DNA of 49,304 nucleotides from Dehalococcoidia bacterium. GTDB taxonomy: Bacteria > Chloroflexota > Dehalococcoidia > Dehalococcoidales > Fen-1064. Location: assembly GCA_003162335.1 (NCBI GenBank), contig PMMG01000083.1:184-49487 (forward strand), given 5' to 3'. Below, in pieces: positions 1-42,048 of the stretch. A program made the position numbers and the translations under genes. The stretch's first letter is position 1, and the number at the start of each line of letters is the position of its first letter. The notes under the pieces are model-generated. The model searched no databases and was not told the origin of the DNA. It saw only the letters and a program-made list of their open reading frames with translations.

Positions 1-1425
1 GGTGGCTGAGGGAGCTGCACGCCCGCAGTTGTGCGGGCAAGTGTCGCTGCAGAGAAAGCCGGATTCCCCACGACTTCCATTGTGCTTAGCGGCTTTCTGG
101 GACAGGCTAAAACTGTCGCGCAAGCGCTGGGTATAAAAAACCTGGCCCTCGCTGAATATCCCGGTCTGGTAGCGATGGACAGTCCGGATGAATTGCGCCG
201 TAAGGTCACCGAAACCGTTGTTAAAAACATCATCTCCGGCTTCACGCGGCAGGTCGAAGATATCGGGCAGAGCAGAGAACCCAAACCGAGTGATATCATC
301 TTTACTGGCAATCTGGAGGAAGTCCAGGAGCATTTCCTTAAAAACTACTGGACGGACGGCCTGCCGGTGATTCCTCCCACGGTTGATAAAATTGAAAAAT
401 TCCTCCGATTTACCACGCGTAAGCCGGATGAAATTATTGGTAAATTGTTGCCGGAAAACCGGGAAGCGACGGTCTGGAATGTCGCGGTTAACGGCGTCAT
501 GGCCGGCTGCCGTCCCGAATATATGCCCATCTTATTATCTGTAGCCGAAGCCGTTGCCGACCCTGAATTCCGTATCCAGGACGCCGGCGCTACCCCTGGC
601 TGGGAACCGTTGATCATTTTGAACGGCCCCATTATCAAGCAATTAAACTTCAACTACGAGACCGGGGTGATGCGCTTCGGACGTCGGGCTAATACCAGCA
701 TCGGCCGTTTTCTGAAGCTATTTTTAATTAATATTGCCGGTTTGCGCATTCCGCCGGGACTGAGCGATAAAGCGACAATCGGCAGTGGTTTTCTTGTGGT
801 TTTACCGGAGAATGAGGATGCCGTCGCCGAAATAGGCTGGGAATCTTTCAGCATGTACCGCGGTTTTAAACGGGAAGATAATGTGGTCACCGTCCAGAGT
901 GTGGTTTACGAATCTTCCCCAATGGCCACCGGCGGCGAAAAAGCCGTCGACCACCTGCAAACGCTCTCTGAAGTTATCGGCGGCAGCATGGCGCCGTGGA
1001 CGCACGTGGCGTTGAACTGGGGGAAATTTTACCCGCTGATTGTTATTCCTCCGGGTGTCGCCCGATTCCTGGCCAAAGAAGGGGTCACCAAGAAGGACAT
1101 TAGGCGGTACTTATACGACCACACTAAAGTCTCGGTAAAATCAATGGAAAGGCTGGCCCATCACGGCGGTCTGACTTCTTTTTATGTCGATCAACTGGTA
1201 AAAGACGGCATTGCCCCGCCGGCATACGCGGAAACCAATGATCCTGACCGGATGGTACCGGTATTCCTGAGGCCGGAATGGATCGGCATCGTGGTCAGCG
1301 GCGACCCCGGCCGTACCCGCTGCCGTGGCTATGTGCAGAACCACGAACAGGGGCCGCCGGTCAGTAAAAAGATACAGCTCCCGGCAAATTGGGAAAACAG
1401 CCTGAATCCGCTGAATAAACTATAA
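1..1425 (+). CDS. UGSC-family selenoprotein fused to an uncharacterised C-terminal domain. It is 5'-partial (continues upstream of the window) and the in-frame UGA at 7..9 is read as selenocysteine. The track ORF 31..1425 is only the part after the first internal Met.
   Basis: Frame 1 is open from nt 1 apart from the TGA at 7..9, giving GG-U-GSCTPAVVRASVAAEKAGFPT... This aligns residue by residue with the region after the UGA of the free-standing gene 2281..2814 (U-GSCTTWCIHAAVALEKAGKPT...). The downstream domain (WTDGLPVIPPT...AVNGVMAGC...) is paralogous to the CDS 3719..4750. Confidence 0.6.
18..43 (+). promoter_or_regulatory. Candidate bacterial SECIS hairpin (mRNA structure) downstream of the UGA at 7..9.
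   Basis: CAC-GCCCGCA-GUUG-UGCGGGC-AA-GUG has a 7-bp upper stem, a GUUG apical loop, an AA bulge and a 3-bp lower stem. It starts 8 nt after the UGA and the upper stem begins 11 nt after it. Confidence 0.4.
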
Positions 1426-1534
1426 TTAAATTAGCCATTAAAGTTACACCCTCTTTCTATGCCCCTCCCATAAAAAGGGCGAGAGCGAGAGAGCGTGGAC
1501 AAACAGTTGAACGCTGCAACCAAGGAGCTTAAAA

Positions 1535-2266
1535 ATGCCAAATTACACAATCCATCCTATTGCCGTCTGCAAGGGCCCGCGCGATGGTTCGCATTTTACC
1601 TACCGCGCCAATTTCGGCGTGACAATTAACACTGCCTGTTATGCCTGGTATATCTCCGGTTCAACACAGAAAATCCTTGTCGATACCGGAGGCCGTGCCG
1701 CCACATTCCGCGAAAAAGGTGCGGAAGAAACTGATATTATTTCGGTCGAAGACGGGCTGGCGAAGCTCGGCGTCAAACCGGAAGAAATCGATATCGTCAT
1801 TCTCACTCATTTACACTGCGATCATGTGGAATTGGCTTATCTTTACAAAAATGCCCGGTTCATCGTGCAAAAAAAGGAACTGGATTACAGCAAAAATCCC
1901 CATCCCCTGGACGCCGATTTCTATGTGCCGCGTTATTGGGAAAAGATTAAATTTGATGTCATCAACGGCGACGCGAAGATTGAGCCCGGCCTTTCCGTTT
2001 TCCTCTCGCCGGGTCATTCTCCCGGCGGCCAATCCGTAGAAATCAAGACTGCTTCCGGCACAGCCGTTATTCCTGGTTTTTGCTGTGTTGGCGATACTTT
2101 TAAACAAACTCCGGCCATGAAACACCGCGGTTGGGAGGTAACCATTCCTTTAATTCACCAGAATGCGCTGGAAACCTATGATAGCGTCTTGAAAGTGAAA
2201 AAGAAAGCGGATATCATCCTTCCTTTACATGGCCCGGAATATATAGGCGTAGAAAAAGTATCCTGA
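1535..2266 (+). CDS. Metallo-beta-lactamase-fold hydrolase, lactonase-like.
   Basis: HLHCDH metal-binding motif; SPGHSPGG and the C-terminal LHGP are typical of MBL-fold proteins. An AAGGAG RBS sits upstream. Confidence 0.75.
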   Translation: MPNYTIHPIAVCKGPRDGSHFTYRANFGVTINTACYAWYISGSTQKILVDTGGRAATFREKGAEETDIISVEDGLAKLGVKPEEIDIVILTHLHCDHVELAYLYKNARFIVQKKELDYSKNPHPLDADFYVPRYWEKIKFDVINGDAKIEPGLSVFLSPGHSPGGQSVEIKTASGTAVIPGFCCVGDTFKQTPAMKHRGWEVTIPLIHQNALETYDSVLKVKKKADIILPLHGPEYIGVEKVS

Positions 2267-2280
2267 CGAGGTTTGAAACA

Positions 2281-2814
2281 ATGGCCGATATGATCGAGAT
2301 ATTTATTCCTACCGCTGAACCTAAGATTAAAAAGTTCGCCGTCAATTCCCGGCTGGCTAACCTCGATGGAGAGGTGTTAGGTTTTCTCTGGAATGAAAAG
2401 CCTAACGGCGATGTTTTATTGCGCCGTCTAAGGCAACAACTCACGCAAAAGTACAAACTGGGCGGTACCACCTGGGAGCAGATCGGTGGACTGCACGTCG
2501 ATGTCGACAAAGCGCCGGAAATAAAGAAAATCGCCGCTGCTGCGGATACGGTTATAATCGCGGTCTGTGACTGAGGGAGCTGTACGACGTGGTGTATCCA
2601 CGCCGCGGTTGCCCTGGAAAAGGCCGGTAAGCCTACTGTCACCATTTGCTCCAATAGATTTGAAATCCTGGCGCGCGCCACAGCCGGTGGCCTGGGTATG
2701 AAAGATATTCCACTGGTCATTGTGCCTCATCCCGTCGGCGGCATCAGTCCGGAAGAAGTCGAAGCTAAAGCTGATGTAATTCTGGATAAAGTTATTGCCC
2801 GGCTGGTTGCATAA
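2281..2814 (+). CDS. UGSC-family selenoprotein, free-standing (~177 aa), with UGA at 2572..2574 decoded as Sec. The track truncates it at 2574.
   Basis: The same frame continues after the TGA as ...IIAVCD-U-GSCTTWCIHAAVALEKAGKPTVTICSNRF...ARLVA* to a TAA at 2812..2814. The continuation is homologous to the 5' end of the first gene. A GAGGT RBS precedes the ATG. Confidence 0.6.
2585..2605 (+). promoter_or_regulatory. Candidate SECIS hairpin downstream of the UGA at 2572..2574.
   Basis: CGACGUGG-UGUAU-CCACGCCG forms an 8-bp stem with one A.C mismatch and a UGUAU loop. It starts 10 nt after the UGA. Confidence 0.35.
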
Positions 2815-2829: not shown

Positions 2830-3681
2830 ATGCTATTGAATGCCATCGACAGGCTGCTGAAAGGTTCCATTGATATTCACGCGCATTATGGGCCGGACGC
2901 TGCCGCGAAAAGGAAAGTGGATGCGCTCGCGGGAGCGCAGCAGGCTGTTGCTACCGGTATGCGGGCGATCGTGCTGAAAAGCCACGAATATCCTACTGCG
3001 CCCCTTGCTTATACTATTACTCAAGCCGTGCCGGAAATATCGGTGTTCGGCAGCATCGCATTGAATTCTGAAACCGGCGGCTTAGATCCAGTTGTTGTGG
3101 AAACCTCTGCCAAATTAGGTGCTAAGGTTATTTGGATGCCCACTTTGAGTTCCAATTATGACTATTTGCATAAAAAGTTCAAAACAGGCGGCATCAGTAT
3201 CCTTGACGAAAAAGGCAAATTGCTGCCGGTTGTAGAAAAGATCCTGGGAATCGTTAAACAATATGATATCGTTGTTGCTACCGGTCATTTGCCAGTGAAT
3301 GAATGTTTTGTGTTAGTGGAAAAAGCCAGGGAGATGGGCCTGCGGAAAATCGTGGCCACGCATCCGCTCGGTTTCGAACTTAATACTTATTATACGATCG
3401 AGCAGCAGTGCCGGATTGCGGACATGGGTGCGATAGTGGAGTATTGTTTCGTTACTACCCTGCCGGAGGACGGCATGCCTGTACAAACGATGGTGGAGGC
3501 GATTAGAACGGTGGGTGTCGGACGCTGCCTGCTCAGTAGCGACCTCGGCCAGGCGCACAATCCACCGCCTGCCGAAGGAATGAAAATGATGATTGCCACA
3601 ATGCTCAGCGGCGGTCTAAGCGAAAAAGAAATCGAAATAATGGTGAAAATCAACCCGGCCCGGTTGCTCGGCCTGACTTAG
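2830..3681 (+). CDS. Metal-dependent TIM-barrel hydrolase, amidohydrolase-like.
   Basis: An N-terminal IDIHAHY metal-binding motif, plus internal His/Asp positions typical of the amidohydrolase superfamily. The AAGGAG RBS is only 3 nt from the ATG at 2830, so the in-frame TTG at 2836 is an alternative start. Confidence 0.55.
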   Translation: MLLNAIDRLLKGSIDIHAHYGPDAAAKRKVDALAGAQQAVATGMRAIVLKSHEYPTAPLAYTITQAVPEISVFGSIALNSETGGLDPVVVETSAKLGAKVIWMPTLSSNYDYLHKKFKTGGISILDEKGKLLPVVEKILGIVKQYDIVVATGHLPVNECFVLVEKAREMGLRKIVATHPLGFELNTYYTIEQQCRIADMGAIVEYCFVTTLPEDGMPVQTMVEAIRTVGVGRCLLSSDLGQAHNPPPAEGMKMMIATMLSGGLSEKEIEIMVKINPARLLGLT

Positions 3682-3718: not shown

Positions 3719-4750
3719 ATGGATCGTAAATATTTATCTGAAAAAATGCTGGTCGAAGATTCTTTCGAGGCGGTTAATAATTTGTTCATCGAAAAAGGGT
3801 GGAGCGACGGCTTACCGGTCATTCCACCCACTGTATCGGCTGTTGAGAAAATGCTATCGGGAACTAAAAGAGACCCATCTGAAATGTTGGCGAAAATACC
3901 TCCGTCATGGGGTGAAGCCTCAATCGAAAAAATTGCCGTCAATGCGGTCATGGCCGGGTGTTTGCCGGAATACCTGCCGGTGATTATCACCACGGTCGAA
4001 GCGATGTGTGACGAAAAATTCCGACTAGGGGAAATTCAACCAACCACTCATCCGGTGGCCCCGCTCATTGTCGTCAACGGTCCCATTGCCAAAAAGCTGG
4101 ATATCAATAGCAAAGCGGGAGCTTTCGGACCCTGCTGGCGGGCTAATGCCACCATCGGACGGGCAATCCGTTTGATTTTATTGAACATCGGCGGCGCATA
4201 CCCTGGCAAACTCGATTTAGCGACCCAGGGTCAACCCTGTAAATATACCTATTGCATCGCGGAGAACGAAGAGGATAGTCCGTGGGAACCTCTGCACGTG
4301 GAAAGAGGGTTCGCTGCCTTTGCTGGTACCGTTACTGTTGTGGCCGCGGAAAATCCCCATAATATTAACGAGCATGTCGGCATCAACGGCGAAGAGATTT
4401 TGACTTCCATCTGTAATGCCGTAATGAACACCGGTACCAACAACGTCCTGTTTCAGGAAGGTACGCCGGTCATCGCAATTTGCCCTGAGCATGCCGCGAC
4501 AATTGCCGCGAGCGGGTTTTCCAAGCAGGGTGTCCGTGACTACATTTACGAAAACAGTAAAATGCCGCTGAAACGTTTCTATCCGCGCCAGATCGATAAA
4601 TATTTCCCGGGCTGGGACGAAAACAGGCTTGTTCCGATCACAGCCCATAAAGAAGACCTCATCATCATTGTTGTCGGGGGCACCGGCAAACACTCCAGTT
4701 ATTTGCCTGCCTTTCTGCCGCCCTCCGTCACCAGGGAAATCAAGGAATAA
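3719..4750 (+). CDS. Uncharacterised protein, paralog of the C-terminal domain of the first (fused) UGSC selenoprotein.
   Basis: GWSDGLPVIPPTVSAVEKML...AVNAVMAGCLPEYLPVI...NGPIAKKLD...ANATIGRAIRLILLNIGG aligns with WTDGLPVIPPTVDKIEKFL...AVNGVMAGCRPEYMPIL...NGPIIKQLN...ANTSIGRFLKLFLINIAG of CDS 1..1425. An AAGAGGA RBS is present. Confidence 0.65.
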   Translation: MDRKYLSEKMLVEDSFEAVNNLFIEKGWSDGLPVIPPTVSAVEKMLSGTKRDPSEMLAKIPPSWGEASIEKIAVNAVMAGCLPEYLPVIITTVEAMCDEKFRLGEIQPTTHPVAPLIVVNGPIAKKLDINSKAGAFGPCWRANATIGRAIRLILLNIGGAYPGKLDLATQGQPCKYTYCIAENEEDSPWEPLHVERGFAAFAGTVTVVAAENPHNINEHVGINGEEILTSICNAVMNTGTNNVLFQEGTPVIAICPEHAATIAASGFSKQGVRDYIYENSKMPLKRFYPRQIDKYFPGWDENRLVPITAHKEDLIIIVVGGTGKHSSYLPAFLPPSVTREIKE

Positions 4751-4788
4751 AATTATTAAGCATAAATAGTTTCGGTATGGGGGCATCG

Positions 4789-5772
4789 ATGAAAATAGAT
4801 GTGTTCTGTCACATTGTCCCGCCCAAATATAAATCCGCCCTGGATAAAACTATCGGTACCGTGGCGATGGTTGATGTCCTGCCTACAATGTATGATATGG
4901 ATGCACGCTTCCGCATCATGGACAAAACTGAAGACCTGCGGCAGGTATTAACCGTCTCATTGCCTCCGCTGGAAACCGTACCGGACAGGAAAAAGGCAGT
5001 ATCGCTGGCTAAATTGGCCAACGACGAAATGGCCGAACTCGTACTTAAATATCCGGATAGATTCGCGGCCGCGATCGCCAGTTTGCCCATGAATGACATT
5101 GATGCCGCTTTGCGCGAAACAGACCGGGCGATAAATGATTTGAAATTTAAAGGCGTTCAGATTTTTACCCCCATGAATGACAAACCTCTCGATGCTCCAG
5201 AATTCTGGCCTTTGTATGAGAAAATGGCTAAATACGACCTGCCGATATTGATTCACCCGCACCGTGAATCTGACTATGCGGATTACCGCACGGAAAAAGA
5301 ATCCCTGTACAGCATGAACACATTATTAGGCTGGATCTATGAAACCTCCGCGGCGATGATCCGCTTAACTTACAGCGGGGTCATGGAAAAATACCCCGGG
5401 TTGAAGATTATTACTCACCATGCCGGCGCGATGATCCCATTTCTGGAACAACGAGTCCTGGATTTCGCCGATTTCGGTGAAAATCTGCTGAAATCCCATG
5501 TTAAACGGAACCTGGATAAACCCGTGATCGATTACCTGAAAATGTTTTACGTCGATACCGCTCTTTATGGCAACACTCCCGGTCTGATGTGCAGCTATGC
5601 GCTCTATGGTTCTGAACATATGCTGTTTGCCACAGACTTTCCCTATGATACTGAGTTCGGACTGAAGCACGACCGTGCGACTATCGCCGCTATCGAAAAA
5701 ATGGACATTAACGCCGCCGAAAAGAAAATGATATTTGAAGGTAATGCCCGCCGTTTGTTGCATCTGCCATGA
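4789..5772 (+). CDS. Amidohydrolase-2 family protein (ACMSD-like metal-dependent hydrolase/decarboxylase fold).
   Basis: An N-terminal IDVFCHI motif and a C-terminal ...MIFEGNARRLLHL end typical of PF04909-like proteins. The start is taken as the ATG at 4789, which has a GGGGG SD 6 nt upstream; the track's ATG at 4777 has none. Confidence 0.65.
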   Translation: MKIDVFCHIVPPKYKSALDKTIGTVAMVDVLPTMYDMDARFRIMDKTEDLRQVLTVSLPPLETVPDRKKAVSLAKLANDEMAELVLKYPDRFAAAIASLPMNDIDAALRETDRAINDLKFKGVQIFTPMNDKPLDAPEFWPLYEKMAKYDLPILIHPHRESDYADYRTEKESLYSMNTLLGWIYETSAAMIRLTYSGVMEKYPGLKIITHHAGAMIPFLEQRVLDFADFGENLLKSHVKRNLDKPVIDYLKMFYVDTALYGNTPGLMCSYALYGSEHMLFATDFPYDTEFGLKHDRATIAAIEKMDINAAEKKMIFEGNARRLLHLP

Positions 5773-9451: not shown

Positions 9452-9982
9452 ATGTCTGTTGAACGGCAGGCCGCGGTTATGAAAATTCTGGACGACCAGA
9501 ACCATCTCTCAGAGAGGGCCGATGGCAAGGCTATATCACTACTATCCATGCTTGGTATTTTTACGGTCTTTTTCGTCAGCCAAATCGGCAGTATGAAAAA
9601 TATGAGTCTCTTCATGAACATCGCTGTGGTTGTATACTTTGTCTCCGTTTTGATGTCCATTATCCAGATCATACAGGCAATCTCCCCCCGTATACGTACC
9701 GTAAAACATATTTCAAAATCGGGCCCGAAAGCAAAGCCCATCCCGCAACCGACATTCTTCGGTGGAATCTGCAAATTCCCAAATTCCGAGGAATATAAAA
9801 AATGCCTGGATGATGTCATTAAGAATGATGACGAAATAACTGATATTTATATCAAACAGATCTACGAAGTGGCACAAATAAATGCGACCAAATATTCGTG
9901 TGTCAACCGTGCCGTCTGGTTCGTAGTCCTTGCTTTAGGCAGCCAGTTAGCTATTATTGCTTATATATTCGCTACCAAATAG
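9452..9982 (+). CDS. Small 3-TM membrane protein of unknown function, co-oriented 39 nt upstream of the cyclase gene.
   Basis: A GGAGGAAG RBS. An N-terminal polar helix ending in ...ERADGKAISLL, two TM helices, a ~70-aa cytoplasmic segment and a C-terminal TM helix. Confidence 0.5.
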   Translation: MSVERQAAVMKILDDQNHLSERADGKAISLLSMLGIFTVFFVSQIGSMKNMSLFMNIAVVVYFVSVLMSIIQIIQAISPRIRTVKHISKSGPKAKPIPQPTFFGGICKFPNSEEYKKCLDDVIKNDDEITDIYIKQIYEVAQINATKYSCVNRAVWFVVLALGSQLAIIAYIFATK

Positions 9983-10021: not shown

Positions 10022-11881
10022 TTGGTTAAAATAAAAAAACCGGTAATAAAATTAAAATGGACGCAGCGCAATAAGCGGCGTGTCCTTCATGCCGGGATTT
10101 TAATGGCGGCCGGAGGATTATTTATTCTGGCAATCGCTCTGGTCCAGCCGTTTTATACCTTTAACCTGTGGTTTTCTGACCGGTTTGTTTCCTCAGGTCG
10201 TGTTTCGCCCAATATCGTTATCGCGGGTATCGATGATGCATCCTTGGCCAAATACGGAAAATGGTCGGATTGGCCGCGCAGTTTACATGCCCAGGCCGTG
10301 AATAATCTGGAGGATGCCGGTGCTTCGGTTATCGGTTATGATGTAATTTTCGCTGATACCTCCAATAATGACCAGTCATTTGCCGCCAGTATGAAAAAGG
10401 CCGGTAATGTTATACTCGCTGGCGCGGGAACTACCCGCCTCGCTTTAAAAGATGCCCCGCCAACATACCAGCAATTTTTGCTTCCCGCTGCGACTCTTTA
10501 TCAATCTGCTGGTATGATAGGTCATGTTAATATTGTCCCTGATCCTGACGGAAAAGTCCGACGGATTCCACTAATTGTCCGGCAAGCGGATGGTAATACC
10601 TATCCGTCGCTAAGTGTCGCCGCGCTGTATACGCTCTTTCATAAGCCGCTATCGGTGAGCTATCCACTGTCCAACAGTAAGCTCAACCTGTTAATGCGGG
10701 ATATTCCGGTCGATTCGTCTTATTTTATGCTCTTAAATTATTCCGCCATCGATACCAAACCGGCATATCTTTCCTACGGCGATATTATCGCTAATACTTT
10801 TGACCCGTCGTTGGTCAAGAATAAAATCGTATTTATCGGTATGACTGCCACCGGCGATACCGACCAGTTCTCTGTCCCTAATTCCTCTGTGCGTATCCCC
10901 GGCGTCTACATTCACGCCGCTGCCGCCGATACCATTTTACGTACGCAATTCTTGACCGAGCAGCCTCTTTCCACCACACTGTGGACAATGGGGCTCTTGA
11001 TTATTTTATGCGCGGTGATGCTGCCTGTTTTCGGCACCTGGCATTGGACGGATATCCTGAAGGGTACCTGTTTTATGATCGTTTTACTGTTTATCTATAT
11101 CATAATGGCTTCGCTGCTGGCCGGACAGGGCTATATCATGAATATCCTCTATCCGTCCCTGCTTTTACTGGCACTGTTTATCACGGACATTGTTTTCATG
11201 ATTATCCAGGAGCAAAGTGATAAAAAATTCGTCAAAGACCTTTTCGGCCGGTATGTTTCCCCGCAGATTTCCAAAGAGATCGTCAGTATGGCCAATCAAG
11301 GCGGGCTCCGGCTCGGCGGCGAAGAAAGGGAAGTCACTATCCTTTTCGCCGATATACGGAATTTCACTACGATCAGTGAAAAGATGACGCCGGACGGCGT
11401 CGTAAAAATGCTCAATACCTGTTTGCCTGTTTTAATTGATGTTATTGTGCAAAATGGCGGTTTGGTCAATAAATTTGCCGGTGATAATCTGATGGGCGTT
11501 TGGAATGCCCCGCAATCTCAAGTCGACCATCCGAGATTAGCTGTTAAAGCTGCATTGGAAGGCCAGCAAAAAATGGCAGAATTATGCGCCATTAATACAG
11601 AATTGAGCAATGTTCAATTCGGCATCGGCATTAATACCGGTAAGGCTTTGGCTGGTAATGTTGGGTCCTTAGGGCGAGCCGAATATACCGTGATTGGCGA
11701 TGAAGTGAATTTGGCTTCACGCATCTGCAGTGTCACACCCGGCGGTGAAATCTATATCGGTCCGGATACATTCGACCAGACTCAGCAATATTTCAATGTT
11801 GAGGCGCAGCCGCCCCAGATTTTTAAAGGTAAAAGCAAGCCCATCGTTGTTTATAAAGTGCTTGGATTTAAAATAAAGTAA
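10022..11881 (+). CDS. CHASE2-sensor class III adenylate/guanylate cyclase.
   Basis: An N-terminal TM helix followed by CHASE2 motifs (VIAGIDDASL...GKWSDWPRS...YDVIFAD), then further TM helices. The C-terminal cyclase domain has FADIRNFT, NKFAGDNLMG, GIGINTG and GDEVNLASRI. The start is a TTG at 10022 with AAGGTG upstream. Confidence 0.8.
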   Translation: MVKIKKPVIKLKWTQRNKRRVLHAGILMAAGGLFILAIALVQPFYTFNLWFSDRFVSSGRVSPNIVIAGIDDASLAKYGKWSDWPRSLHAQAVNNLEDAGASVIGYDVIFADTSNNDQSFAASMKKAGNVILAGAGTTRLALKDAPPTYQQFLLPAATLYQSAGMIGHVNIVPDPDGKVRRIPLIVRQADGNTYPSLSVAALYTLFHKPLSVSYPLSNSKLNLLMRDIPVDSSYFMLLNYSAIDTKPAYLSYGDIIANTFDPSLVKNKIVFIGMTATGDTDQFSVPNSSVRIPGVYIHAAAADTILRTQFLTEQPLSTTLWTMGLLIILCAVMLPVFGTWHWTDILKGTCFMIVLLFIYIIMASLLAGQGYIMNILYPSLLLLALFITDIVFMIIQEQSDKKFVKDLFGRYVSPQISKEIVSMANQGGLRLGGEEREVTILFADIRNFTTISEKMTPDGVVKMLNTCLPVLIDVIVQNGGLVNKFAGDNLMGVWNAPQSQVDHPRLAVKAALEGQQKMAELCAINTELSNVQFGIGINTGKALAGNVGSLGRAEYTVIGDEVNLASRICSVTPGGEIYIGPDTFDQTQQYFNVEAQPPQIFKGKSKPIVVYKVLGFKIK

Positions 11882-11922: not shown

Positions 11923-13413
11923 ATGAGAATAACCCATTCCTTACTATTCAGAATTCTGCTGTTCGTCCCTGTATTCCTTTCTTTATTTTTAGGCCTTACA
12001 TCATGCGGAACAAAAAGTGGAAATGATCCTTTAACTGTCTTGTCGATAGCAGGGGGGAATGTTTCAATCCAAAAATCGGGCTCTTCAGACTGGAGTAACG
12101 GCAAAGAAGGCCTCACGCTGGCAAAGGGCGACAAGATCAAAACGGACACCGACAGCACTGCATCCATCACCTTTTTTGACGGCAGTATTATCCAGTTAAG
12201 TGGCGGTACGGAAATATCCCTGGACGAACTCATTACAAAATCTTCGACTTCTGCGAAGATCATTAAAATCGGCCAGACAATTGGTATAACTTCCAGCAAT
12301 ATCGTGAAGCTGGTTGATTCGGCTTCAAAATTTGAAATAGATACACAATCCGGTGTAGCTGCCGTCCGGGGCAGCAAAATGGTAGTCCAGGTGGCCTTGG
12401 ATAACACGACCAGTGTTTATAACGTTGAAGGCGCTATCAGTTTCATTGCGCAGGGCAAAGAAGTCGCCATCCCGGTCGGCTCGGTCAGTTCTGCCAAACC
12501 GGGTTCAGCCCCCAGTGCTCCGCAACCCGGCACGCCACCGGTGATCAGCGTCCCCAATGTAACCTCGGTTTCTTCGCTGTTAGGCTGGCAGCAGACCGGA
12601 TTATACCTTAAATCCGGTGATAAATATTATGTGGAATACCGCGGCGGCAGCTGGAGTGTTAATATCCATGGTTACCCTTATGTCGGGCCTCTGGGTCTGC
12701 CTAACGACATTGATAATAAAGTTGACAATGGCTCTAAAATTGACCTGTCAGTCCCCTATGGCTATTTGCTGGGAAAGGTAGGCAGCGGTAATGTGGTTAC
12801 AGTTGGTGATAAAGGCGGGCCGTTTACGGCCGACGCCACCGGTTTCCTGTCATTGCGAATGAATGATGGCGATAACATTCTGGGCGACAATGACGGCGCG
12901 ATTTCTGTCGCATTACGTACAACAGTTTATTTTGCCTTCGACGACTATAGTGTCACAAAAGGGAATCCGAATTGCAGCTGGTCTTACGGCTGGATGCCCA
13001 CTGACTTCAGCAAATTTAATCCATATGTTACCCACAATTCGATCCAATGGTACGGTCCGCAAGGCGGCGACCTGACTCCATGCATCTGGATCAACACTGG
13101 CGGTACAACGTACGGAGTGCCTACCGGCTGGCTTTCGCTGCATCCCGGCCCTGGTACAGAACCTTCAATTCTCCGTTGGACCGCGCCGGTTGTCGGTAAA
13201 GTCCATGTCACGGGTCAGTTCCTGGCCGGCGATGGCGGGATCATGACTATCGCAGTATTCCATAATGTTCAAAAATTGTGGACGGCATCTGATGCCGGCA
13301 AATTCGATCTGAATATTGTTGTCGCTGCGGGTGATAATATCGACTTTGCCGTTTATGGCGGTTATGGCTATGGAAATACCCCCATCAGCGCGACAATCAG
13401 CTACGGCAATTAG
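11923..13413 (+). CDS. Secreted FecR-domain lipoprotein with an unknown ~300-aa Gly/Tyr-rich C-terminal domain (paralog A).
   Basis: A signal peptide plus Cys (LGLTSCG); a FecR-like segment (GLTLAKGDKIKTD...ITFFDGSIIQLSGGTEISLDEL); a conserved C-terminal region (GSWSVNIHGYPYVGPLGLP...VYGGYGYGNTP). A GGAGG RBS is present. Confidence 0.7.
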   Translation: MRITHSLLFRILLFVPVFLSLFLGLTSCGTKSGNDPLTVLSIAGGNVSIQKSGSSDWSNGKEGLTLAKGDKIKTDTDSTASITFFDGSIIQLSGGTEISLDELITKSSTSAKIIKIGQTIGITSSNIVKLVDSASKFEIDTQSGVAAVRGSKMVVQVALDNTTSVYNVEGAISFIAQGKEVAIPVGSVSSAKPGSAPSAPQPGTPPVISVPNVTSVSSLLGWQQTGLYLKSGDKYYVEYRGGSWSVNIHGYPYVGPLGLPNDIDNKVDNGSKIDLSVPYGYLLGKVGSGNVVTVGDKGGPFTADATGFLSLRMNDGDNILGDNDGAISVALRTTVYFAFDDYSVTKGNPNCSWSYGWMPTDFSKFNPYVTHNSIQWYGPQGGDLTPCIWINTGGTTYGVPTGWLSLHPGPGTEPSILRWTAPVVGKVHVTGQFLAGDGGIMTIAVFHNVQKLWTASDAGKFDLNIVVAAGDNIDFAVYGGYGYGNTPISATISYGN

Positions 13414-13501: not shown

Positions 13502-15058
13502 ATGCGCTTCAATAACTTCCTACTGAGATTCTTGTTGCCAGTCCCCATCATGATGTCCTTATTTTTAGGAATAACGGCTTGCGGTTCAGGCGCCGCTCCC
13601 GCTAAAATTAATAATACTCCCTTAACCGTCTTATCGATTACCGGCGGTAACGTTTCGATACAAAAATCCGGCTCCGGCAATTGGGTTAGCGCTACCGAAG
13701 GCCTTACCCTGACGAAAGGAGATAAAATCAAAACTGACGCCAATGGCAAGGCAGTGATCACTTTCTTCGATGGCAGTATTATCGAATTGAACGGCGGTAC
13801 CGAGATCTCAATGGATGAACTCATCGCCAAATCGGCATCTTCTCCTAAAACAATTAAGATCGGGCAAAAAATCGGCGAAACCACCAGCACGATCGTTAAA
13901 CTGGTTGACCCGGCGTCAAAATACGAAATTGATACCCAATCCGGTGTGGCCGCTGTTCGCGGCAGCAAAATGTTCGTGAACGTAGCCTCCGACAACACTA
14001 CCAGTGTTTATAATCTTGAAGGTTCTATCAGTTTCACCGCTCAGGGCAAAGAAGTCCTGATTCCGGTCGGTTCGGGTAGTTCCGCCAAACCCGGCGAAGT
14101 CCCATCTGCGCCGCAACCAGGCCTCCCGTCCGGTATCGACGCATCAGGGATAACCTCAGGTTTGATCTCCGTTTCTTCCCTGACAGGCTGGCAGCAGACT
14201 AACTTACAGCTGAACGCTGGTGATAAGTTCTATGTCGAATACAGGGGCGGCAGCTGGAGTGTTAATATCCATGGTTACCCTTATGTCGGGCCTCTGGGTC
14301 TGCCTACCGATATCGATAATAAAGTTGACAACGGATCTAAAATTACCGTTTCAGTCCCGTATGGTTATTTGATCGGAAAGGTCGGCAGCGGTAACGTGAT
14401 AAACATCGGTAACATGGGCGGGCCGTTTACAGCCGACGCGAGCGGTTTCCTGTCGCTGAGAATGAATGATGGCGATAAGACATTAGGAGACAATGACGGC
14501 GCGATTACAGTCGCGGTGAGGGCTACTGTTTACTCTGCATTACACGATTTTAGTACTACCAACGGGAATCCCAACGGCAGTTGGTCTTACGGTTCGATGC
14601 CTACCGACTTCAGTAAGTTCAATGTCTATAACGCTAACAGTACATTCATGTGGTACGGAAATATAGGCAGTGACCTTACCCCCTATATATGGATTAATAC
14701 AGGTGATTTGACTAATGGAGTGCCTCCAGGTCTTACCAACACTAATGGCGTCGCAAGCGGAGTGCCTACCGGCTGGCTTTCGTTACACCCCGGCCCGAAC
14801 TCCGAGCCTTCAGTGCTGCGTTGGACCGCGCCTGTTGATGGTGATGTTCATGTCACGGGGCAATTCCTTGCCGGTGATCGTGGAATCATGACCGTTGCAG
14901 TTCGCCATAATATTCAAGAGATGTGGAAAGCATCGAATTCCGGCAGCTTCGATGTGAATATTAAGGTTGCACGGGGAGACACCATCGACTTTGTGGTTTA
15001 TGGGGGTTACGGTTACGGCAACACTCCTGTCAGCGCAACCATCAGTTATAATAATTAG
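13502..15058 (+). CDS. Secreted FecR-domain lipoprotein, paralog B of the preceding gene.
   Basis: Colinear with 11923..13413 at high amino-acid identity. A GGGAG RBS and a lipobox (ITACG) are present. Confidence 0.7.
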   Translation: MRFNNFLLRFLLPVPIMMSLFLGITACGSGAAPAKINNTPLTVLSITGGNVSIQKSGSGNWVSATEGLTLTKGDKIKTDANGKAVITFFDGSIIELNGGTEISMDELIAKSASSPKTIKIGQKIGETTSTIVKLVDPASKYEIDTQSGVAAVRGSKMFVNVASDNTTSVYNLEGSISFTAQGKEVLIPVGSGSSAKPGEVPSAPQPGLPSGIDASGITSGLISVSSLTGWQQTNLQLNAGDKFYVEYRGGSWSVNIHGYPYVGPLGLPTDIDNKVDNGSKITVSVPYGYLIGKVGSGNVINIGNMGGPFTADASGFLSLRMNDGDKTLGDNDGAITVAVRATVYSALHDFSTTNGNPNGSWSYGSMPTDFSKFNVYNANSTFMWYGNIGSDLTPYIWINTGDLTNGVPPGLTNTNGVASGVPTGWLSLHPGPNSEPSVLRWTAPVDGDVHVTGQFLAGDRGIMTVAVRHNIQEMWKASNSGSFDVNIKVARGDTIDFVVYGGYGYGNTPVSATISYNN

Positions 15059-40815: not shown

Positions 40816-41904
40816 CTAGACTGTCGTTTTCCCGACCGCGTCATAGAAAGCACGCCAGAAGGGATCGACAATGGGGTGCTTGAGCTTCTTTTCTTTGCCG
40901 TTCTCGACGAGAATCATGCCATTCTTCGCTTCAACCAATTCCCCGACGACGGAGGATTTAATGCTTTTCTTTGCCAGGGCTTTGACCACCGCTTCGGCTT
41001 TCTGCGGACGGCAGGATGCGATGAGGGTACCTTCGCTGATCGAAGCATAAGAATCGATACCGAAATAGTCGCAGATCTCCGGCACGCATTCCTCGACGAC
41101 GATGTCTTCTTTGACTATGCGTACGCCGAGACCGGCTGCCTGCGCTACTTCGTACAGGCCGCCCCAGATGCCGCATTCGGTGGCATCATGCATGGACGTA
41201 ATCCCGTTTTCCCGGACGCCGACTTTAACAGCGGTCATGGCGTCTTCCACTACAGACATTTTGTAGAACAGTTTTTGCGCTTTTTTACTGAAGGTCTTGC
41301 CGAACTTTTTCTCCAACAAAGCAGGGAACATTGTAGCGAAAATACCGGAGGCTTCGATTGCCGGGCCTTTGCTGATAATGATCTTATCGCCGGCTTTGGC
41401 CAGGCGCGGCGTGACATATTCGTCCAGTTCACCCACGCCGATAATTGTTGCTCCGCCGACCATTGGATAATTACAGTTTTCGTAGCGGGCGGTGTGTCCG
41501 GTGATCACAGTGACGCCCAATCTTTCGCACTCTTTGTGAATAGTATCCCACATAATGAGCAGCTGTTCTTTCGTCATGTCCATAGGGAGGTTCAAATCGA
41601 TGGAGAGGTATTTCGGTTTCAGGCCGCTGGTCACGGAATCGGACAATATAATGTGAATAGCAAACCAGGCTGCGCGTTCCCAGCCGTATTGCGGCACGAT
41701 GAACACCGGGTCGGTAGTAAAAGAAACGGCTTTATCGCCGATCTGCACGATGCCGACATCCACGCCGTGCTGAGGCCCGACAATAATATCTTTGCTCTTC
41801 GCTCCCAGGCGGGGAAAGATCACTTCGGTAAATATTTCCGGTGAAATTTTGCCGATTTCCGGCATTTCCGCACCGGGTGTTGTTTGCTTTTTCTGTCCTT
41901 TCAT
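40816..41904 (-). CDS. PurM-like (AIR synthase-related, HypE-like) protein.
   Basis: A PurM-fold pattern (VSFTTDPVFIVPQYG...AAWFAIHIILSDSVTSGLKP...VITGHTARY). It lacks both the SelD N-terminal Cys/Sec motif and the HypE C-terminal Cys. The start is taken at MKGQKK (41904), which has an AAAGGAG SD 5 nt upstream. Confidence 0.65.
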   Translation of the reverse strand: MKGQKKQTTPGAEMPEIGKISPEIFTEVIFPRLGAKSKDIIVGPQHGVDVGIVQIGDKAVSFTTDPVFIVPQYGWERAAWFAIHIILSDSVTSGLKPKYLSIDLNLPMDMTKEQLLIMWDTIHKECERLGVTVITGHTARYENCNYPMVGGATIIGVGELDEYVTPRLAKAGDKIIISKGPAIEASGIFATMFPALLEKKFGKTFSKKAQKLFYKMSVVEDAMTAVKVGVRENGITSMHDATECGIWGGLYEVAQAAGLGVRIVKEDIVVEECVPEICDYFGIDSYASISEGTLIASCRPQKAEAVVKALAKKSIKSSVVGELVEAKNGMILVENGKEKKLKHPIVDPFWRAFYDAVGKTTV

Positions 41905-42048
41905 GTTGCTCCTTTGGTTGAATAGTGAGTTCATATTCCTGAATTTTAAGTTGCCGGTTACGGGTTCAATATTGATATTATATCAAAAAGAAAATATGGG
42001 TAATTATTAACGAGCAAATCCCTCCCGGAGAGATAATGTCAGGCTGTT

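What the first reader, a model, noticed from the sequence alone, without database searches (positions are those of the whole stretch)
1..2814. Two UGSC-family selenoprotein genes with in-frame UGA and SECIS-like hairpins, which the supplied ORF track (like any stop-delimited gene caller) splits or truncates
Two genes carry TGA exactly at the first position of a conserved U-G-S-C-T motif (nt 7-9 and 2572-2574). In both, the same frame continues open with clearly homologous sequence (GSCTPAVVRASVAAEKAGFPT... versus GSCTTWCIHAAVALEKAGKPT...). In both, a stable hairpin with G/U in the apical loop begins 8-10 nt after the UGA, which is the geometry of bacterial SECIS elements. A stop-codon reading would truncate one protein at 97 aa and orphan the N-terminus of the other. 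U-x-x-C is a selenenylsulfide redox motif analogous to the CxxC motif of thiol oxidoreductases.
Basis: partly seen in the sequence, partly recalled or inferred. Interest (0 to 1): 0.8.

Follow-up and report, generated by a model that had tools for sequence, protein, structure and literature searches.

The report
Two UGSC selenoprotein genes, one fused
Both in-frame TGA codons are real selenocysteine sites in two genes of the known but functionally uncharacterised UGSC selenoprotein family, and these genes always sit beside, or are fused to, a large unnamed partner protein family.

Summary
TGA at 7-9 and 2572-2574 sits at the U of U-G-S-C-T, and the frame continues. Gene B (2281-2814, 177 aa) passes the curated NCBIfam (NF041046) and Pfam (PF24696) UGSC models across both sides of the TGA.

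Gene A is cut by the window start. Near-identical metagenome contigs give a 575-aa protein: a UGSC domain fused to a ~390-aa domain with no Pfam or NCBIfam match.

All 21 gene-B homologues and the top 120 gene-A homologues in the protein database are split at this column. Actinomycetota homologues carry Cys there. Substitutions downstream of the TGA are mostly synonymous. TGA ends 10 of 37 other genes, so the genetic code is standard.

A hairpin with its apical loop 18-19 nt after UGA occurs in 81% of 68 Sec forms, against 17% of Cys forms, and its stem covaries.

- The fused domain has a free-standing paralogue at 3719-4750.
- It lies next to or fused with UGSC in almost every locus examined.
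- It has no solved structural relative.
- The UGSC Sec module is homologous to that of glycine reductase GrdB (hhalign probability 97%).

I could not test for selABCD. The family is already known, so this is a new member, not a new kind.

The parts
1..1425 (+). Gene A, 3' part: codons 102-575 of a 575-codon gene that starts 303 nt upstream of the window. It encodes a UGSC domain fused to the partner domain.
   Evidence: L001 matches the window with 4 mismatches in 12.3 kb. Pfam UGSC 97.4 bits over residues 8-180 of the full protein.
7..9 (+). In-frame TGA of gene A, read as selenocysteine (residue 104)
   Evidence: The top 120 homologues of the downstream ORF are 368-479 aa, none near the 575-aa full length, so all lack the part upstream of this codon.
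17..44 (+). SECIS-like hairpin of gene A. Core stem 21-27 with 32-38, apical loop GUUG at 28-31, lower stem 17-20 with 41-44.
   Evidence: for the fold. for family-wide conservation and covariation.
304..1425 (+). Partner domain fused in gene A. It carries the WTDGLPVIPPT and NGVMAGCRPEY motifs.
   Evidence: 30% identity to 3719-4750, E 2e-24. No Pfam or NCBIfam match. AF2 model pLDDT 83.6. No PDB relative.
2281..2814 (+). Gene B, a stand-alone UGSC selenoprotein of 177 aa with Sec at residue 98
   Evidence: Orthologues with the same TGA and the same stop position.
2572..2574 (+). In-frame TGA of gene B, read as selenocysteine
   Evidence: All 21 database homologues end at this column. Downstream substitutions are mostly synonymous.
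2575..2613 (+). SECIS-like hairpin of gene B. Core stem 2588-2592 with 2598-2602, apical loop UGUAU at 2593-2597, lower stem 2578-2583 with 2605-2610.
   Evidence: The core is nearly invariant at the nucleotide level in orthologues, including synonymous sites.
3719..4750 (+). Stand-alone partner protein (343 aa), a paralogue of the domain fused in gene A and the presumed partner of gene B
1535..2266 (+). MBL-fold hydrolase (lactonase-like) lying between genes A and B. Context gene, also present in the related locus L009.
2830..3681 (+). DUF6282 protein lying between gene B and the partner gene. The same order is seen in L009 and L014.
4777..5772 (+). Amidohydro_2 family protein at the end of the same-strand cluster
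   Evidence: Amidohydro_2 also recurs near Cys-form UGSC genes.

Best explanation
Both TGA codons are selenocysteine codons. A SECIS hairpin lies inside the coding sequence immediately 3' of each UGA, with its apical loop 18 nt downstream. By the established bacterial mechanism, this hairpin recruits SelB with Sec-tRNA(Sec), so the ribosome inserts Sec instead of terminating.

The products are two members of the UGSC selenoprotein family. Gene B is a 177-aa stand-alone form. Gene A is a 575-aa natural fusion of a UGSC domain with a ~390-aa partner domain.

The same partner family is also encoded separately at 3719-4750. I infer that UGSC and the partner form a two-component enzyme, here present both fused and unfused.

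Inferred mechanism: the U-G-S-C module is homologous to the Sec module of glycine/betaine reductase selenoprotein B. It would act as the redox or nucleophilic centre, with Sec attacking a substrate or an oxidised group held by the partner. The Cys three residues on would resolve the adduct to a selenenylsulfide. A thioredoxin-reductase-type system would re-reduce it.

Shown here: the recoding signals, family membership, the linkage to the partner, and the GrdB homology. Inferred only: the chemistry, the substrate and the electron donor.
For: Family membership.

TGA conserved at the column:
- In homologues down to 51% identity for gene B, all 97-99 aa fragments, with read-through verified on the DNA of L009-L015.
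- In homologues down to 56% identity for gene A, with the top 120 being 368-479 aa and none near the 575-aa full length.

Cys at the same column in 29 Actinomycetota/Alphaproteobacteria loci and in full-length fusions P0270 and P0272.

Downstream of the TGA, synonymous changes exceed nonsynonymous ones (27 against 15 versus L009), and third-position changes dominate.

TGA is an ordinary stop in 10 of 37 window genes, so the code is not reassigned.

Six independent assemblies carry the same sequence.

Hairpin:
- A contiguous stem of at least 6 bp at a fixed distance occurs in 81% of 68 distinct Sec-form UGSC genes and 95% of 20 GrdB genes. It occurs in 17% of 30 Cys forms and 14% of codon-shuffled controls (Mann-Whitney p = 3e-9).
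- 73% of cells are paired, against 23-46% when the partner columns are slid. The covariation score is 0.305 against 0.04-0.18, and 0 of 500 shuffles reach it.
- The commonest loops are GUG and GUU.

Partner linkage:
- Adjacent to UGSC in the genome loci (tblastn).
- Adjacent or fused, in either order, in nearly all metagenome loci with enough flank.
- Fusion lengths appear.

GrdB homology: hhalign probability 97.3%, E 2e-11, with Sec aligned on Sec.

A TrxR-like flavoprotein with a CATC motif lies next to UGSC in 6 loci.
Against: No selA, selB, selC or selD lies in the 49-kb window or the flanks I could read. The organism's ability to decode Sec is therefore inferred, not shown.

Each of the two window hairpins taken alone is not significantly more stable than shuffled sequence. 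RNAalifold returned no consensus on the ungapped family alignment, because the stem register differs by 1-2 nt between subfamilies.

No dedicated bSECIS predictor was available, and Rfam has no hit.

Gene A falls below the NCBIfam equivalog cutoff (62 against 125 bits).

For the mechanism:
- The partner shows no detectable similarity to GrdE/PrdA or to the GrdB N-terminal domain.
- Some fusion homologues have lost both redox residues (P0269, P0282).
- No substrate is indicated.
Confidence: 0.9

Rival explanations
1. The TGAs are true stops. The genes are split or decaying, and only the fragments (97 aa and 103 aa N-terminal pieces, plus a 464-aa downstream ORF starting at GTG 31) are made.
For: This is what stop-delimited gene callers report on every public contig. 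The single-sequence hairpin z-scores are weak. Sec machinery was not found in the window.
Against: The same split at the same codon recurs in more than 140 homologue clusters across phyla. In gene B, the first 41 codons after the TGA would be non-coding, yet they are the most conserved part of the protein and evolve mostly by synonymous change. Cys-form homologues are single ORFs. The Pfam model matches across the TGA.
Confidence: 0.03
2. UGA is read through or reassigned to a standard amino acid (Trp, Gly or Cys) instead of selenocysteine, either through an alternative genetic code or through SECIS-independent suppression.
For: Sec machinery is not demonstrated for this organism. Cys can functionally occupy this column in homologues.
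Against: TGA terminates 10 of 37 other genes in the window. The only window gene with an internal in-frame TGA is gene B, with gene A the second case, so there is no code-wide reassignment. A hairpin at the position expected for a SECIS accompanies TGA forms but not TGY (Cys-codon) forms. The same arrangement occurs in bona fide GrdB selenoprotein genes caught by the same pattern.
Confidence: 0.05
3. The genes are genuine selenoproteins, but UGSC acts as a free-standing thioredoxin-like thiol/selenol oxidoreductase, as suggested in the literature. On this view the adjacent partner gene is only a co-regulated neighbour and not a physical or catalytic partner.
For: Zhang and Gladyshev 2008 (PMC2398784) proposed a Trx-like fold and a general redox role. 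The U-x-x-C motif is typical of such proteins. Neighbouring genes other than the partner vary widely.
Against: Adjacency holds across Chloroflexota, Thermodesulfobacteriota, Actinomycetota and Alphaproteobacteria. Independent fusions exist in both orders, which argues for physical association. Profile comparison links UGSC to the GrdB Sec module. Neither the Pfam scan nor the PDB sequence search returned a thioredoxin-family match.
Confidence: 0.15

Closest known systems
UGSC-containing selenoprotein family (NCBIfam NF041046, Pfam PF24696; Zhang & Gladyshev 2008, PMC2398784; first noted in Hyphomonas neptunium and ocean metagenomes, PMC1976440)
   Same: The U-G-S-C motif is at the same column. 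The HMM matches over the whole domain. Sec forms predominate and Cys forms are rarer. The function is unknown. A 'UGSC/Unknown_1' fusion has already been reported.
   Different: Gene A falls below NCBI's equivalog cutoff and is a fusion protein. I could not verify that the published 'Unknown_1' is the same partner domain, because Fig. S1A is held only as an image. The papers I read that mention UGSC call it Trx-like and mention neither the near-universal partner gene nor the GrdB relationship.
Glycine/sarcosine/betaine reductase selenoprotein B (GrdB; Pfam GRDB PF07355) and D-proline reductase PrdB
   Same: The Sec module is homologous: U-G-x-C, then 11 residues, then E-K-x-G-x-P with identical spacing. 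hhalign gives 97.3% probability over 97 columns with Sec aligned on Sec. My DNA pattern for UGSC also retrieved 20 GrdB genes. These carry the same kind of SECIS hairpin at the same distance, with GGU or GGC loops.
   Different: UGSC lacks the ~330-residue GRDB N-terminal domain (no PF07355 hit). Its partner is unrelated by sequence to GrdE/PrdA or to the GrdB N-terminus. No grdA, grdC or grdD-like genes are nearby. The reductive C-N cleavage chemistry of GrdB/PrdB comes from my knowledge of the literature and is only an analogy here.
Bacterial SECIS elements (E. coli fdhF type; bSECISearch consensus)
   Same: The hairpin lies within the ORF directly after UGA. The apical loop is 18-19 nt from UGA and usually has G as its first or second base, followed by U. 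Stem sequences vary while pairing is kept. The consensus figures (loop 16-37 nt from UGA, G in the first two loop positions) are from my memory of Zhang & Gladyshev 2005.
   Different: SelB binding was not tested. No curated model exists in Rfam. Loops are often only 3 nt (GUG), which is shorter than in fdhF.

Membership tests
UGSC family (seleno)protein (NF041046 / PF24696) | HMM score at or above the curated cutoff | tested here: met
   Gene B: NCBIfam 131.4 bits against a cutoff of 125, and Pfam 155.3 against 25. Gene A full length: Pfam 97.4 against 25 is met, but NCBIfam 62.3 against 125 is not. Gene A is therefore a member at the Pfam-domain level only.
UGSC family (seleno)protein (NF041046 / PF24696) | U/C-G-S-C motif at the conserved column, with Sec or Cys in homologues | tested here: met
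   The column holds TGA in Chloroflexota, Smithellaceae and metagenome relatives, and Cys in Actinomycetota and in some fusion homologues.
Bacterial selenoprotein gene (Sec decoding) | In-frame UGA with conserved, translated sequence on both sides | tested here: met
Bacterial selenoprotein gene (Sec decoding) | SECIS hairpin immediately 3' of the UGA, conserved in Sec forms and dispensable in Cys forms | tested here: met
   The test used my own hairpin criteria and the count of structure pairs, not bSECISearch. RNAalifold gave no consensus.
Bacterial selenoprotein gene (Sec decoding) | selA, selB, selC (tRNA-Sec) and selD present in the same genome | not testable with these tools
   No tRNA in the window. 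The AIRS protein at 40816-41934(-) scores 41 bits against a SelD cutoff of 125. Flanks seen hold no sel genes.
Bacterial selenoprotein gene (Sec decoding) | Selenium actually incorporated at the UGA position | not testable with these tools
   This needs 75Se labelling or mass spectrometry.
Glycine/betaine/proline reductase component B (GrdB/PrdB, PF07355) | GRDB N-terminal domain | tested here: not met
   Neither gene hits PF07355. NCBIfam GrdB models match only weakly (about 20 bits against cutoffs of 65 or more) over the Sec region.
Glycine/betaine/proline reductase component B (GrdB/PrdB, PF07355) | Homologous Sec-containing C-terminal module | tested here: met
   hhalign probability 97.3%, E 2e-11
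Glycine/betaine/proline reductase component B (GrdB/PrdB, PF07355) | Pyruvoyl proprotein partner (GrdE/PrdA) | tested here: not met
   Partner alignment against GrdE alignment gives hhalign probability 0.1%. No GrdE-like gene is in the window.

The most novel reading that the evidence does not exclude
UGSC plus its partner protein form a previously unrecognised, widespread two-subunit (or fused) selenocysteine-dependent enzyme. The Sec module shares ancestry with glycine/proline reductase selenoprotein B. The partner has no solved structural relative and carries invariant Cys, Asp, Arg and Glu residues; it would play the substrate-binding or activating role that GrdE/PrdA play in those reductases. 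In this window, two such units sit among three hydrolase genes. That arrangement suggests a catabolic pathway with a reductive bond-cleavage step, recharged by a thioredoxin-reductase-type system.
Probability: 0.3. Interest if true: 0.7.

Novelty: new member of a known kind. Interest (0 to 1): 0.4.

Why it matters
For annotation: both genes, and hundreds of relatives in public data, are currently split into 'hypothetical protein' fragments. The Pfam GRDB model also ends right at the Sec position, at residue 349 of GrdB proteins whose Sec aligns at position 350.

For biology: UGSC is one of the most abundant orphan selenoprotein families in aquatic metagenomes (PMC2398784). Three results turn 'unknown redox protein' into a testable hypothesis about a two-component selenoenzyme:
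- It is almost always paired or fused with one specific uncharacterised family, which has at least 5,469 clusters at 50% identity.
- Its Sec module is GrdB-like.
- A TrxR-like gene is sometimes adjacent.

The natural fusion in gene A is a ready-made construct for structural and biochemical work.

Tried and rejected
- SelD candidate: the AIRS/AIRS_C protein at 40816-41934(-) looked like SelD from its Pfam domains. It scores only 41 bits against a 125-bit cutoff and is closer to HypE/ThiL, so I rejected it.
- Rfam gathering scan of the window: no hits.
- RNAalifold on the 68-sequence ungapped alignment: no consensus structure. Per-sequence folding and named-structure counting were informative instead.
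- Genome scan: writing C for U biased one search pattern towards Cys forms. The Sec:Cys ratio in that result therefore means nothing. It still supplied Cys controls and two Sec genomes.
I therefore modelled only the in-window part of gene A, which lacks the N-terminal half of the UGSC domain. The position of Sec relative to the partner could not be examined.
- The afdb50 fold library was unavailable.
- Sequence searches of the PDB found nothing for either family.
- The idea that the partner is a GrdE/PrdA-type proprotein or a GRDB-N domain was rejected at the sequence level.
- I tried to match the published 'Unknown_1' fusion domain. The figure is an image and the sequence dataset is truncated.
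- The first neighbour census was spoiled by antisense ORFs and by my overlap filter. I redid it.
Full report
**Observation**

Frame 1 reads GG-TGA(7-9)-GSCTPAVVRASVAAEKAGFPT and stays open to the TAA at 1423-1425. An ORF starting at ATG 2281 reaches TGA at 2572-2574 after 97 codons. It continues in frame as GSCTTWCIHAAVALEKAGKPT to the TAA at 2812-2814.

Both UGAs are followed by a hairpin.
- Gene A: a 7-bp core stem, 21-27 with 32-38, loop GUUG.
- Gene B: a 5-bp core stem, 2588-2592 with 2598-2602, loop UGUAU, plus a lower stem.
- In both, the apical loop begins 18 nt after the UGA.
- Taken singly, neither fold is significant against shuffles (z -1.9 and -0.9).

**What the genes are**

Gene B, with U written as C, scores 131.4 bits on NCBIfam NF041046 'UGSC family (seleno)protein' (cutoff 125). 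It scores 155 bits on Pfam PF24696, and that match spans residues 7-176, so it covers both sides of the TGA.

Gene A runs off the window start. Six public metagenome contigs match the window almost exactly (4-13 mismatches in 12.3 kb). They show a 103-codon ORF that ends at this very TGA. The full gene is therefore 575 codons.

Residues 8-180 of gene A match Pfam UGSC at 97 bits. The NCBIfam score is only 62, below the cutoff. The remaining ~390 residues match nothing in Pfam or NCBIfam. They are 30% identical (E 2e-24) to the 343-aa product of 3719-4750. Gene A is thus a UGSC domain fused to a 'partner' domain, and gene B has a free-standing copy of that partner two genes downstream.

**Is the UGA decoded?**

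All 21 database homologues of gene B (51-99% identity) are 97-99-aa fragments that end at this column. On their DNA (L009-L015) the codon is TGA. The frame continues for 79 codons to a stop, and the downstream peptide is more conserved than the upstream one.

Against L009, the downstream part has 27 synonymous and 15 nonsynonymous codon changes, and 39 of 62 base differences fall at third positions.

The top 120 homologues of gene A's downstream ORF (56-100% identity) are 368-479 aa. None approaches the 575-aa full length, so all lack the part upstream of the Sec codon.

In 29 Actinomycetota and Alphaproteobacteria genomes, and in full-length fusion proteins such as P0270 and P0272, the column is Cys in a single ORF.

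In the window, TGA ends 10 of 37 genes. No other window gene has an internal in-frame TGA, so the genetic code is standard.

**SECIS**

A pattern scan of metagenome contigs used TGA-GGN-DSN-TGY-N33-GARAAR-N3-GG-N4-CC. It returned 82 matches, and all were confirmed by a UGSC HMM. By score and ORF length on either side of the TGA they sort into:
- stand-alone UGSC genes;
- UGSC-partner fusions (24, counted by a downstream ORF over 300 aa);
- reverse-order partner-UGSC fusions, which that length rule files with the stand-alone group;
- 20 genuine GrdB genes (PF07355).

Per-sequence folding puts an apical loop at nt 21-25 from the U of UGA in nearly all of them. The commonest loops are GUG, GUU and, in GrdB, GGU or GGC.

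On an ungapped 68-sequence alignment, the stem formed by columns 14-22 with 26-34 behaves as follows:
- 73% of cells are paired, against 23-46% for slid registers.
- The covariation score is 0.305, against 0.04-0.18 for slid registers.
- None of 500 shuffles reaches the observed value.

A contiguous stem of at least 6 bp at this position is present in 81% of Sec-form UGSC genes and 95% of GrdB genes. It is present in only 17% of Cys-form UGSC genes, despite their 74% G+C, and in 14% of codon-shuffled controls (p = 3e-9).

This is the expected signature of a bacterial SECIS. RNAalifold found no consensus because registers differ by 1-2 nt between subfamilies, and Rfam has no model for it.

**What could not be shown**

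The window has no tRNA gene and no selA, selB or selD. The one AIRS-domain protein is not SelD. The readable flanks hold none either. The tools do not reach the rest of the genome. Named hits point to Chloroflexota.

**The partner**

A homologue of the 3719-4750 protein lies directly beside the UGSC gene in the genome loci. These span Chloroflexia, Smithellaceae, many Actinomycetota and an alphaproteobacterium (tblastn). In the metagenome loci it is adjacent or fused, in either order, wherever enough flank exists.

An exhaustive search finds 5,469 cluster representatives at 50% identity with E up to 1e-3. Their lengths indicate several forms:
- stand-alone proteins of about 345 aa;
- Sec-truncated fusions of about 410-470 aa;
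- full-length Cys fusions of about 530-570 aa;
- a reverse-order fusion cut at Sec;
- tandem partner domains.

All are labelled hypothetical and none has a Pfam domain.

Invariant residues, in the numbering of the 343-aa protein, are D30-G31 (in WxDGLP), A79-G80-C81 (in MAGC), G121-P122, N143, G147-R148 and E182. C179 is nearly invariant.

**Relation to known enzymes**

The UGSC profile aligns with the C-terminal Sec region of GrdB at 97.3% probability (E 2e-11, 97 columns), with Sec on Sec. The shared motif is U-G-x-C, 11 residues, then E-K-x-G-x-P.

The partner shows no similarity to GrdE or to the GRDB N-terminal domain (probability 0.1% and 0.4%). UGSC-plus-partner is therefore not a glycine or proline reductase, although its Sec module is of that lineage.

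A thioredoxin-reductase-like flavoprotein with a CATC motif lies next to UGSC in six loci, including the close relative L009. Other neighbours are catabolic: SDR, Zn-ADH, Amidohydro_2, aldehyde dehydrogenase and an ABC peptide transporter. In this window they are an MBL-fold hydrolase, DUF6282 and Amidohydro_2.

**Literature**

'UGSC-containing protein' has been a recognised selenoprotein family of unknown function since 2005-2008. It had 255 Sec and 21 Cys forms in the GOS data, was suggested to be Trx-like, and was reported with a 'UGSC/Unknown_1' fusion (PMC2398784; PMC1976440; reviews). I could not check whether Unknown_1 is the partner described here.

**Verdict**

It concerns a known family, so it is a new member and not a new kind.

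The added value lies in three points:
- Gene A is a fusion.
- There is a near-obligate partner family with no solved structural relative.
- The UGSC Sec module is homologous to that of GrdB.

Together these suggest a testable two-component selenoenzyme. Confidence that both UGAs encode Sec is 0.9. Confidence in the proposed chemistry is low, about 0.3.

Noticed in passing
window 9452-9982 (+) and 10022-11881 (+): A PycTM-type two-transmembrane effector (PADLOC PycTM, 74.6 bits) lies directly upstream of a 619-aa CHASE2-fused nucleotide cyclase. The cyclase matches Pycsar PycC models at 88.9 bits. Together they look like a Pycsar-like anti-phage pair with an unusual CHASE2 sensor domain on the cyclase.
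   Followed up: partly
window 40816-41934 (-): An AIRS/AIRS_C protein of 362-372 aa lies next to pdxA. It falls below cutoff for every NCBIfam model: HypE 95 bits against 252, ThiL 64 against 184, SelD 41 against 125. It is an unassigned PurM-superfamily member and not SelD.
   Followed up: partly
Metagenome loci L048-L126 (GrdB-like subset), e.g. L053 3388: The Pfam GRDB model (PF07355, 347 positions) ends at residue 349 of GrdB proteins, one residue before the Sec column (position 350 in the GrdB alignment). The ~85-residue Sec module is outside the model, probably because the seed sequences were truncated ORFs.
   Followed up: partly
L003 7083-7961 (upstream of gene A in contig ERZ27248486 k141_2967765): In one strain variant, an IS1595-family transposase gene and two small ORFs lie between the signal-peptide-peptidase-like gene and gene A. 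The other five contigs lack them.
   Followed up: no
L005 11296-12147 (equivalent to window 2830-3681): In one metagenome contig the DUF6282 gene is called as two ORFs (94 + 181 aa). This suggests a frameshift or nonsense variant of that gene in one population.
   Followed up: no
P0269 and P0282; P0284: Some full-length UGSC-partner fusions have lost both the Sec/Cys and the resolving Cys (IGGS and SGVY in place of UGSC). One protein carries two tandem partner domains and no UGSC. The partner may therefore also work without the redox module.
   Followed up: no
window 11923-13413 (+) and 13502-15058 (+): Two consecutive large FecR-domain proteins (496 and 518 aa) lie downstream of the cyclase gene. 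Their function was not examined.
   Followed up: no
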